A DNA stretch of 64,000 nucleotides from an uncultured Gemmatimonadales bacterium. Lineage in GTDB: Bacteria > Gemmatimonadota > Gemmatimonadetes > Gemmatimonadales > GWC2-71-9. Made by a program: the position numbers. The stretch covers positions 928,001 to 992,000 of the forward strand of contig CAVZZO010000003.1 of the NCBI GenBank assembly GCA_963779755.1, given 5' to 3'. Positions 30,403-33,400 of the stretch are shown piece by piece (the first letter of the stretch is position 1; every line of letters begins with the position of its first letter).

Positions 30403-33400
30403 TTACGGCTCACCGCTCACCGCTTACCCTTGTAGCGCCGCGGCGCCGCCCACGATCTCCGCGATTTCCTGGGTGATCTGGGCCTGGCGCTGCCGGTTGT
30501 AACTGCGGCGCAGCAGCCCCAGCAGCTCGCCGGCGTTGTCGGTCGCGTTCTTCATGGCCGTCCGGCGCGCGCCCTGCTCCGAGGCGGCCGTCTCGACCAG
30601 CCCGCGGAAGACGGCGTTGCGCACGTAGAGCGGCAGCAACTCGCGCAGAATCTCCTCCGGCCCCGGCACCAGCAGGTAGTCGGGCCGGGGGCCTTCCCGC
30701 CGCTCCGCCGGCGCCTCCACCGGCAGAATACGCTGCGTCACCGGCGGCGTGCTCAGCGCGCTCACGAACCGGGCGAACACCAGGTCCACGCTGGCCAGCT
30801 CGCCCCGCTCGTACCGCTCGATGAGCGGCTGGGCCACCTCGGCCGCCTGCGCGGCGGTGGGGCGGTCGCTGATGTCGGTCCGCTGGGTGGCCGGCGGCCG
30901 GCCGATGAAGCGGAAGAAGCCGATGCCCTTCTTGCCGATCCCGTGCAGCTCCGTCTCGTACCCCTCTGCCGCCAGCACGTCGAGCCGGCGCCGTGCTTCC
31001 TTGATCAGGTTGGCATTGAAACCGCCCGCCAGACCGCGGTTGGAGGTGATCAGAATGACGGCCGCGCGCCGGGGGCCGCCCCGGTCCGGAGGCGCCGGCC
31101 GCCGCAGCAGGGGGAAGCGCTCGGCCAGCTCGGGGGTCGCCAGGTCGGCGATCACGTGCTGCAGCGCCTCGGCGTAGGGCCGAGCCGCGATGACCCGGTC
31201 CTGCGCCCGCTTCAGCTTGCTGGTCGCCACCAGCTCCATGGTGCGCGTGATCTTGCGCGTGTTCTCGATGGAGCGGATGCGGCCCTTGATCTGCCGGGTC
31301 TTCGCCATCAGCCGTTCGCGCGGAACAGGGGTTTGAAGGCCTTGATTGCGGCGTCGAGCGCACCCTTGAGATCGTCGCTCAGCGTCTTCCTGGTGCGGAT
31401 TTCTTCCAGGATTTCCGGGTGGGCGCTGTCCAGGTAGTCGAGGAAGTCGGGCTCCCACTGCCGGATGTGCTCGATCGCCACGTCGTCCAGATGGCCGTTG
31501 GTCACCACGTAGATGATGGCCACCTGCCGCTCGACCGGGATCGGATGATACTGGGGCTGCTTGAGCACCTCGACCAGCCGCTCGCCCCGGGCCAGCTGCC
31601 GCTGGGTGGCGGCATCGAGGTCGGAGCCGAACTGGGCGAAGGCCTCCAGCTCGCGGAACTGGGCCAGGCTCAGGCGCAGCGGGCCGGCCACCTGCTTCAT
31701 CGCCTTGATCTGCGCGTTGCCGCCTACGCGGCTCACGCTGATGCCGGCGTCGATGGCGGGCCGGACATTGGAGTAGAACAGATCGGTGGTGAGGAAGATC
31801 TGCCCGTCGGTGATGGAGATGACGTTGGTCGGGATGTAGGCCGAGACGTCGCCCGCCTGGGTCTCGATGATGGGCAGCGCGGTCAGGGACCCGCCCGGCT
31901 GCTTGATCCGGGGATCCTGCTTGATGGCGTTGGCGTCTTCGGAGATCTTGGCGGCCCGCTCCAGCAGACGGCTGTGCAGGTAGAAGACGTCGCCCGGATA
32001 GGCCTCACGGCCCGGCGGACGGCGCAGGATGAGCGACAACTGCCGGTAGGCGGCGGCCTGCTTGGAGAGGTCGTCGTAGACGCAGAGGGTGGCCTTCCCC
32101 TCGGTGTACATGAAATGCTCCGCCATGGCGCAGCCGGCGTAGGGCGCGATGTACTGCAGCGGGGCCGGATCGGAAGCGCTGGCCATCACGACGATGGTGT
32201 AGTCCATGGCGCCGTGCTCCTTGAGCCGCTCCACGACCGTCGCTACCGTGCTGCGCTTCTGGCCGATCGCCACATAGACGCAGATAACCCCGTTGTTCTT
32301 CTGATTGACGATCGTGTCCACCGCGATCGCCGTCTTGCCGGTGCCGCGGTCGCCGATGATCAGCTCGCGCTGGCCCCGCCCGATCGGGATCATGGAATCG
32401 ATGGCCTTGATGCCGGTCTGCAGCGGCTCCTTCACCGGCTGCCGCACGATGATCCCGGGGGCAACCATCTCCACCGGGCGCGCGCCCTCGGCCTTGATGG
32501 GGCCCCGGCCGTCCACCGGCCGGCCCAGCGCATCGACCACGCGGCCCAGCAGGGCGCTGCCCACCGGCACCTCCAGCAGCCGGCCCGTGGTGCGGACCTC
32601 GTCGCCTTCCTTCAGCTTGAGGTAGTCGCCCATGATGGCGGCGCCGACGTTGTCTTCTTCGAGATTGAGCACCAGGCCGGTGACGGTCTCGCCCGTCTCC
32701 GAGCTGGTGAACTCGAGCATCTCGCTGGCTATGGCCGACTTGAGACCGTAGATCCGGGCGATGCCGTCGCGCACCTCGAGCACGGTGCCGACCTCTTTGA
32801 CGTCCACCGAGCCGAGCTCGGCGGCCTCGATTTCCCGGAGCAGGACTTCCTTGAGCTCACCGGGCCGGAGAATGGATTCTGTCGCCATGGGCTGTACGCG
32901 AATGGTGGCTGGAAACCTGTTTCGGGTTTAGCTTGTGAAAAATATCACAATCCCTTCATCGCCGCCACCCCTGCCCCCCCCTCAACCGCTTCCCCGGGAT
33001 GAGGAATCAGGAATCAGGGACAACGGGCGGTCTAATGTAGCGAGTCGGCAGGGATTTCGGGTGGTAGGAACCAGAGACCACGCGCACATTGCCCTTCATT
33101 CCCGATTCCCGATTCCTCCATCCCTGATTATATACCACCGGCTCAATGAACCGGATCGATTTCAGAACGGCGGCGCGCGCCGTCCCACTCACCGTCAACC
33201 GCATGAGCGACCGGCTGGTCCAGTTGCTCATCCGTCTGGGCATCGGCGAGCACACCCTCCTGCTCGCCATCGCGGCCCTGGTCGGGGTTCTTGCCGGCTT
33301 CGCCATCGTCGGGTTCTACCGGCTGATCGATCTGGGTACGGCGCTGGTCCAGCATATCGCGGTATGGCTCAGCCTGCCCGAGGCCCTGGTGACCGGCGTG

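What a model noticed while it worked through the whole genome (the two positions that open the first line are those of the whole stretch)
32932..32949. Rex operators sit before both halves of the split F0/F1 ATP synthase operon and before alternative complex III
The F0 (C1:1212681) and F1 (C3:960888) operons lie far apart, yet each has a Rex box TTGTGA-N6-TCACAA in its promoter, as do rex itself and the alternative complex III operon. NADH/NAD+ sensing thus appears to keep the split ATP synthase and the quinol-oxidising complex in step.
Evidence so far: Top spaced palindrome in an unbiased scan; sites at C3:960934, C1:1212643, C1:1771648, C1:2043578. Box with <=2 mismatches before atpA in 19 of 24 and before F0 in 24 of 25 genomes of the order; background 17 of 3749 genes.
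(Added by a program. Inside this text positions count along the whole contig: contig position 928,001 is position 1 of the stretch shown here. "Call 12" and the like, gene names such as g00115 and contig names such as C1 are that model's own, and its searches are not shown. The text may have been shortened before it was handed on; [...] marks where a part breaks off. The agent that wrote the report below was given it as the finding of a first reader that could run no searches.)

Follow-up and report, generated by a model that had tools for sequence, protein, structure and literature searches.

The report
Rex operators on split ATP synthase
A well-known NADH-sensing repressor very probably controls both separated halves of the ATP synthase genes, and much of the respiratory chain, in this group of bacteria; the regulator is familiar, but the detached half seems to have gained its own binding site when the operon broke in two.

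Summary
The box is real (window 32933-32950, TTGTGAAAAATATCACAA, 44 bp before atpA of atpAGDC) and almost certainly a Rex operator. A matrix trained only on rex-promoter boxes scores >=10 bits at atpA in 46 of 53 genomes of the order, F0 35/45, nuoA 37/50, a cupredoxin 23/30 and ACIII only 24/50 (background 12/3530 genes). In 8 of 9 genomes of the class where rex was not found, the F0 operator is gone while -35/-10 stay. Three of those keep CRP; two genomes with no CRP-type HTH over the cut-off keep the boxes. The operon is whole in 25/25 outgroup genomes, which lack an atpA box (0/26) and mostly carry the F0-type box at the operon head. The split genomes form one clade, so the atpA operator arose with or after the split. 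Against strict coupling: one genus keeps rex but lost the atpA box (7/7). Rex control of atp and nuo is proven in Streptomyces, and the split is already tabulated; my searches found no Rex regulon paper for this phylum. No assay exists. The scan's index held no earlier such finding.

The parts
32933..32950 (.). Rex operator (TTGTGA-N6-TCACAA) of the atpAGDC promoter
   Evidence: 27.8 bits with a matrix trained on rex promoters only; conserved in 46 of 53 order genomes
32939..32944 (-). predicted -10 hexamer (TATTTT, preceded by TG: extended -10) of the atpA promoter; it is the central spacer of the operator
   Evidence: consensus of 46 sites has TA/aaT at box positions 7-12 and TTgC 17 bp upstream; all 7 g18 genomes keep TTG..N16-19..TAnnnT without the arms. 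In this genome the -35 position reads TGGCGG (poor). Inferred; no TSS data
31308..32888 (-). atpA (F1 alpha), first gene of the detached F1 operon
   Evidence: TIGR00962 E 2.8e-239
30424..31308 (-). atpG (F1 gamma)
   Evidence: TIGR01146 over cut-off; start from own gene call
28891..30324 (-). atpD (F1 beta)
   Evidence: TIGR01039 E 1.2e-246
28631..28891 (-). atpC (F1 epsilon, short form, 86 aa)
   Evidence: TIGR01216 over cut-off
33146..34918 (+). divergent ClC-type chloride channel with CBS domains; probably not the target of the box
   Evidence: found beside atpA in this genome only, 1 of 83 atpA loci

Best explanation
The 18-bp palindrome is an operator for the Rex dimer encoded at C1:2043601. 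When NADH/NAD+ is low, Rex sits on it and covers the -10 element of the atpAGDC promoter, damping transcription; when NADH accumulates it binds Rex, Rex lets go and F1 genes are derepressed. The same protein covers the -35 and spacer of the F0 (atpZIBEFH) promoter, the start region of rex and nuoA-N, and the promoters of a cupredoxin and, in about half of genomes, alternative complex III. NADH excess thus raises NADH oxidation, quinol oxidation and ATP synthesis together. History: the ancestor had one atp operon with one Rex box at its head; the order's ancestor split it between atpH and atpA, and the F1 half came under a new promoter with its own Rex box. Shown here: sites, conservation, co-loss with rex, gene order, tree. 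Inferred: promoter positions, binding, repression, NADH response, timing of the gain.
For: (1) A box directly 3' of the -10 of rex in 49 of 50 rex loci. (2) A matrix trained on those alone finds atpA 46/53, F0 35/45, nuoA 37/50, cupredoxin 23/30 and actA 23/50, plus G055 on re-fetch = 24; background 12 of 3530 own genes, 0 of 1060 shuffles. (3) Co-loss: F0 box in 11 of 12 rex-bearing genomes of other orders of the class, and in 1 of 9 order/class genomes where rex was not found. In 8 of those 9 the -35 and -10 remain at 16-17 bp spacing while TTTCACAA is replaced; G101 vs its rex-bearing congeners is the clearest pair. In G116 and G119 ksgA abuts arcA, so rex is cleanly deleted. (4) G116, G119 and G085 keep the CRP orthologue with SRETVSR yet lack F0 and nuoA boxes; G116 and G119 lack the atpA box too. 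G025 and G011 have no Crp HTH over the Pfam cut-off yet keep perfect atpA boxes. (5) Position 12 is T in 44/44 atpA, 42/42 rex and 23/23 cupredoxin sites chosen on the CRP core alone, as in the Rex consensus TTGTGAA-N4-TTCACAA (PMC2883068 abstract). (6) Rex here matches Thermus and Thermotoga Rex structures at E 5e-52 and 2e-50; 10 of 12 DNA-contact residues are identical, GxGxxG intact. (7) Split in 59/59 order genomes, whole in 25/25 outgroups, atpA box in 0/26 outgroups; the split genomes form one clade (33/33, support 0.94). (8) Experimental precedent: S. avermitilis Rex binds and represses atpI, nuoA1 and rex (PMC5355995).
Against: Genus g18 keeps rex but lacks the atpA box (7/7) and nuoA box (6/6) and keeps only the right arm at F0, so matched control of the halves is dispensable. 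All 10 family-f3 genomes examined lack the nuoA box. ACIII lacks a box in 26 of 50. G036 and G043 have no F0 box, G009, G034 and G037 a weak one. G059 lacks rex but keeps F0 (16.9 bits) and nuoA (17.7) boxes; an IS-like transposase follows ksgA there. G060 lacks rex but keeps boxes; its ksgA lies at a contig end. G077 has a rex hit but no F0 box. In Desulfovibrio several conserved Rex sites gave no or under 2-fold response in a rex mutant (PMC4045070), and in S. avermitilis atpI fell under oxygen limitation with or without Rex, so the effect on atp may be modest. The tree holds only one f2 genome and FastTree support only.
Confidence: 0.9

Rival explanations
1. The sites are bound by the CRP/FNR-family protein (C3:511756-512433), not Rex: TTGTGA-N6-TCACAA is also the CRP/HcpR consensus.
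For: The same consensus was assigned to a CRP-like factor (HcpR) in Desulfovibrio (PMC545781). The genome's one Crp-HTH protein has the recognition helix SRETVSR, conserved in 30 of 30 orthologues shown. The genome has 11 perfect TGTGA-N6-TCACA cores.
Against: Boxes vanish with rex while CRP stays (G116, G119, G085) and persist where the CRP orthologue was not found (8 genomes with atpA or F0 boxes: G010, G011, G016, G025, G034, G037, G038, G040), two of which have no Crp HTH over cut-off. g18 has CRP in 6 of 7 and no atpA box. A separate GC-flanked class, GTGTGACCWGGATCACAC, is a better candidate for CRP. No box before crp itself.
Confidence: 0.03
2. Rex binds the sites but only trims expression; F0/F1 balance is set by other means, and the second operator reflects general selection for redox control of energy genes, or capture of an existing Rex-controlled promoter, rather than a need to keep the halves in step.
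For: g18 tolerates loss at atpA with half a site at F0; weak or no response of conserved Rex targets in Desulfovibrio; Rex-independent fall of atpI in Streptomyces. This reading is compatible with the best explanation and differs only on why the site exists.
Against: The atpA box is near-perfect in 42 of 42 genomes of families f1 and f2 with rex, although its distance to the ATG varies from 18 to 132 bp and its neighbour gene changes, which implies steady selection.
Confidence: 0.4
3. The motif is only promoter sequence (-35/-10 of a housekeeping sigma) or serves the divergent ClC gene.
For: The F0 left arm TTGCGA is the -35 and the atpA spacer is the -10; on the + strand TAGCTT overlaps the box edge in this genome.
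Against: The arms decay while -35/-10 persist in g18 and in rex-less genomes; the box lies at different promoter positions in different operons; ClC neighbours atpA in 1 of 83 loci.
Confidence: 0.02

Closest known systems
Rex regulon of Streptomyces avermitilis (PMC5355995; passages read)
   Same: Same operator consensus; Rex represses atp, nuo and rex by sitting on -35/-10/TSS; NADH releases it; a T at position 7 of the atp site also occurs there.
   Different: There atp is one operon with one site and cydAB is the main target. Here atp is split with two sites, ACIII and a cupredoxin join, and no site was found near this genome's cyd locus or its five COX1-family loci (best 9.0 bits, inside a gene).
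Predicted Rex regulon of Desulfovibrio (RegPrecise/Ravcheev 2012, seen only as cited in PMC5322295, and PMC4045070)
   Same: Includes FoF1 operons and qrcABCD, a complex related to ACIII; deltaproteobacteria also have a split atp locus (PMC4154653). So Rex over a split ATP synthase probably has a predicted precedent.
   Different: Anaerobic sulfate respiration; split at another junction (0C|0B). Whether both halves carry sites there I could not check: Ravcheev 2012 is not held. My recollection that RegPrecise lists both halves is unverified.
Split atp locus of Gemmatimonas aurantiaca (PMC4154653, passages and supplementary Table S1 row)
   Same: Same gene order, I-sI-0A-0C-0B-ID; IA-IG-IB-IE.
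   Different: That paper gives no regulation (0 occurrences of 'regulat' in the main text) and leaves open how species cope with splits.
CRP/HcpR site TTGTGA-N6-TCACAA (PMC545781; passages read)
   Same: Identical 12 outer bases.
   Different: Here positions 7 and 12 are also constrained and the sites track rex, not crp.

Membership tests
Rex repressor (protein) | N-terminal winged helix PF06971 plus C-terminal Rossmann (CoA_binding) domain, about 210 aa | tested here: met
   E 5e-52 to 3IKT
Rex repressor (protein) | DNA-contact residues of Thermotoga Rex (R12, S33, E34, K43, Q46, R48, K49, S52, G58, R60, G61, Y64) | tested here: met
   10 of 12 identical; E34 is D and K43 is T here
Rex repressor (protein) | GxGxxG dinucleotide-binding loop | tested here: met
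   GAGKIG at residues 88-93
Rex repressor (protein) | DNA binding released by NADH | not testable with these tools
   needs EMSA
Rex operator | consensus TTGTGAA-N4-TTCACAA | tested here: met
   window site differs at one of 14 positions, the one that doubles as first base of the -10; 27.8 bits
Rex operator | overlaps promoter or transcription start (repressor geometry) | tested here: inconclusive
   predicted -35/-10 geometry is conserved but no TSS data
Rex operator | same motif before rex; presence tracks rex across genomes | tested here: met
   49 of 50 rex loci; F0 box in 11/12 rex-bearing vs 1/9 rex-lacking genomes
Rex operator | bound by Rex in vitro or in vivo | not testable with these tools
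   no assay
CRP/HcpR site | TGTGA-N6-TCACA core | tested here: met
CRP/HcpR site | presence tracks the CRP-family gene | tested here: not met

The most novel reading that the evidence does not exclude
A dated case of regulatory repair after operon fission: when the order's ancestor split the ATP synthase operon, the F1 half gained a new promoter with a Rex operator built around its -10 element, and selection has kept it in two families because F0 and F1 must respond together to NADH/NAD+. Lineages that lost rex, or the one box, are natural controls.
Probability: 0.5. Interest if true: 0.52.

Novelty: new member of a known kind. Interest (0 to 1): 0.38.

Why it matters
It gives a compact, testable redox regulon (rex, F0, F1, complex I, cupredoxin, often ACIII) for a bacterial order for which my searches found no such description. 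It also offers a concrete answer to an open point in the ATP synthase literature, namely how cells cope with a split atp locus: put the same operator on both halves. The regulator, motif and main targets are known from other phyla, so the surprise is moderate.

Tried and rejected
Sigma-70 consensus scan of 32800-33250: nothing at its threshold; promoters were inferred from cross-genome consensus instead. Unmasked palindrome scan: dominated by repeats. ClC as the target: rejected. V/A-type ATPase, hydrogenase, cyd and COX1-family loci as regulon members in this genome: no convincing site. Site C3:769095 before a multihaem cytochrome c / cytochrome b operon (13.2 bits, inside the called V-ATPase D gene), C3:168142 (9.4 bits) and C3:1814134 (16.9 bits, in an uncalled region; Rfam empty) left unassigned. 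Co-evolution idea: g18 rex operators read TCGTGAA-N4-TTCACGA (6 of 7) and g18 Rex has wing K58R next to the residues that read those bases, but G009 has K58R with TTGTGA, T-to-C is common at other sites, and the contact is to a pyrimidine O2; kept as a weak lead only. Literature: ten full-text searches were run; the two that paired this phylum with Rex gave one rhizosphere metagenome paper (listing only) and none, and (ACIII with Rex) gave only the Desulfovibrio paper. Ravcheev 2012 is not held, RegPrecise could not be consulted, and subscription journals are not covered. No structure prediction or complex job was run.

Full report
Observation. The window holds TTGTGAAAAATATCACAA at 32933-32950, one base off the stated position. 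It lies 44 bp upstream of atpA (32888, - strand), first gene of atpA-G-D-C, and 195 bp from a divergent ClC channel gene. The F0 operon atpZ-I-B-E-F-H has TTGCGAAATTTTTCACAA at C1:1212642. The motif is not the top palindrome in raw intergenic DNA, where REP-like repeats lead, but is rank 1 after masking recurrent 14-mers (4 observed, 0.006 expected). The name Gemmatimonadales comes from an earlier scan note, not from a call of mine; the gene order agrees with that tabulated for Gemmatimonas aurantiaca.

The regulator. The gene at C1:2043601 is a full Rex (PF06971 plus Rossmann domain), E 5e-52 to Thermus Rex. Ten of the 12 DNA-contact residues listed for Thermotoga Rex (PMC8836258, passages read) are identical by the alignment. 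It was found in 59 of 61 genomes of the order. Of 50 rex loci read, 49 have the box just 3' of a TAnnnT element; the miss, G028, has 13 bases of upstream sequence.

Regulon. I trained a matrix on those 49 rex sites only and scored other promoters at 10 bits. atpA: 46 of 53 loci with enough upstream sequence (54 of 59 matches were fetched; G059 dropped as too short). F0: 35 of 45 (46 of 61 fetched; G024 dropped). nuoA: 37 of 50 (50 of 59 fetched). Cupredoxin: 23 of the 30 best matches. actA: 23 of 50 (50 genomes of 61 fetched), 24 with G055, whose site my first cut clipped. Background: 12 of 3530 called genes of this genome, mostly the same few sites counted from both sides, and 0 of 1060 shuffles. 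This genome's nuoA-N operon has a 21.7-bit site 18 bp before the start. No convincing site lies near its cyd, COX1-family, V-ATPase/hydrogenase or crp loci. By family: atpA f1 20/20, f2 22/22, f3 4/11; nuoA 17/20, 20/20, 0/10; actA 8/25, 11/15, 4/10 before the G055 correction. These genomes are kin, so the counts are descriptive.

Geometry. Aligned on the box, atpA sites show TTgC starting 17 bp before it and TA/aaT as the six central bases, so the operator is centred on the -10 and its TG doubles as an extended -10; this explains T instead of A at position 7. F0 sites have TTGCGA as left arm and -35, with TAnnnT 17 bp later. rex sites follow the -10 directly. All are repressor positions. The seven g18 genomes keep the atpA -35 and -10 without the arms, which separates promoter from operator and points the promoter at atpA. 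The ClC neighbour is found in 1 of 83 atpA loci.

Rex or CRP. The 12 outer bases equal the CRP/HcpR consensus (PMC545781, passages read) and the genome has a CRP with SRETVSR, so this was tested. The CRP orthologue was not found in 9 of 61 genomes; eight of these keep atpA or F0 boxes, the ninth is g18 genome G030; G025 and G011 have no Crp HTH over the cut-off. Conversely, I chose 15 genomes where rex was not found and 15 with rex from the phylum sample. In the class, the F0 box is present in 11 of 12 rex-bearing genomes of other orders (G077 lacks it; G076 had no atpB hit) and in 1 of 9 rex-lacking genomes. In the other eight the -35 and -10 persist and the TTTCACAA arm is replaced. G116 and G119 have ksgA next to arcA where rex usually stands, and they and G085 keep CRP; decayed remnants are visible at their nuoA and atpA promoters. 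The exception, G059, has a transposase-like sequence (my reading, not searched) after ksgA. G060 lacks rex with boxes intact, but its ksgA ends at a contig edge. In the other class no F0 box reached 10 bits (0 of 2 with rex, 0 of 6 without).

History. atpA and atpB are unlinked in 59 of 59 order genomes with both found (most on different contigs; 0.9-2.1 Mb apart in the three same-contig cases), and atpH was not seen upstream of atpA in any order locus. They are 2.1-2.9 kb apart in 25 of 25 outgroup genomes, and none of 26 outgroup atpA loci has a box. An AtpA tree of 59 proteins rooted on the other class puts the 33 split genomes in one clade (FastTree support 0.94; only one f2 genome included) inside whole-operon lineages, with two separate losses of the atpA box, in g18 and g46. 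The simplest reading is an ancestral head-of-operon box, a split at atpH|atpA, and gain of a second operator with or after it. Capture of an existing Rex-controlled promoter cannot be told from gain in place.

Against. g18 keeps rex yet has no atpA or nuoA box and only the right arm at F0 (six of seven score 6.8-10.2 bits); ACIII has no box in 26 of 50; G036 and G043 have no F0 box. Conserved Rex sites in Desulfovibrio often gave little response in a mutant (PMC4045070, passages read), and Streptomyces atpI also answers to other control. No expression data were usable.

Known context. S. avermitilis Rex binds and represses atpIBEFHAGDC, nuoA1-N1, cydA1B1CD and rex (PMC5355995, passages read). 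The predicted Desulfovibrio regulon includes FoF1 operons (PMC5322295, passages) and the ACIII-related qrc, and deltaproteobacterial atp loci are split (PMC4154653, passages), so a predicted precedent for Rex over a split atp locus is likely; I could not see Ravcheev 2012 or RegPrecise. A bioRxiv Desulfovibrio paper (10.1101/2023.08.27.555018, passages) added nothing on atp; PMC2883068 was seen as a listing abstract only. Searches pairing this phylum with Rex found no regulon paper, nor did the scan's index.

Verdict. Real, very probably Rex (0.9), a new member of a known kind. The added value is the fuller regulon, the co-loss controls and the apparent gain of an operator at operon fission. 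Interest 0.38.

Noticed in passing
window 47076-47093; also C1:247315, C1:2074087, C3:1308890, C3:1308924, C3:1331493: A second palindrome class, GTGTGACCWGGATCACAC, not scored by the Rex matrix; likely sites of the single CRP-family protein.
   Followed up: partly
G000:C3:755000-769215 (L245, L007): A V/A-type ATPase operon divergent from a NiFe uptake hydrogenase operon, followed by a multihaem cytochrome c / cytochrome b cluster; no Rex box between the divergent operons.
   Followed up: partly
genome-wide intergenic DNA: About 67-69 copies of a REP-like inverted repeat CCCCTTCCC...GGGAAGGGG.
   Followed up: no
L461 (G032:C20:25898 and 26237): Two Rex-type boxes between divergent phosphoribulokinase and RuBisCO large-subunit genes, suggesting NADH-linked control of the Calvin cycle.
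   Followed up: partly
L463, L479, L464, L466 (genus g4): Rex-type boxes between isocitrate lyase and a Gfo/Idh/MocA oxidoreductase, and between a glycerate-kinase-like gene and a class V aminotransferase.
   Followed up: partly
G086 and G130 (family f7): 33-35 Rex-type boxes per genome against 1-12 elsewhere; 20 fetched from G086 precede varied metabolic genes (LUD, CCG, FMN oxidoreductase, thyX, pyrF and others).
   Followed up: partly
G052:C1:264345-264963 (L158): rex matches in two pieces in different frames while its boxes are intact; frameshift or assembly error.
   Followed up: no
L139-L145 (genus g18 rex loci): Symmetric T-to-C / A-to-G change in the rex operator with wing substitution K58R and a shrunken regulon, 1-3 sites per genome.
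   Followed up: partly
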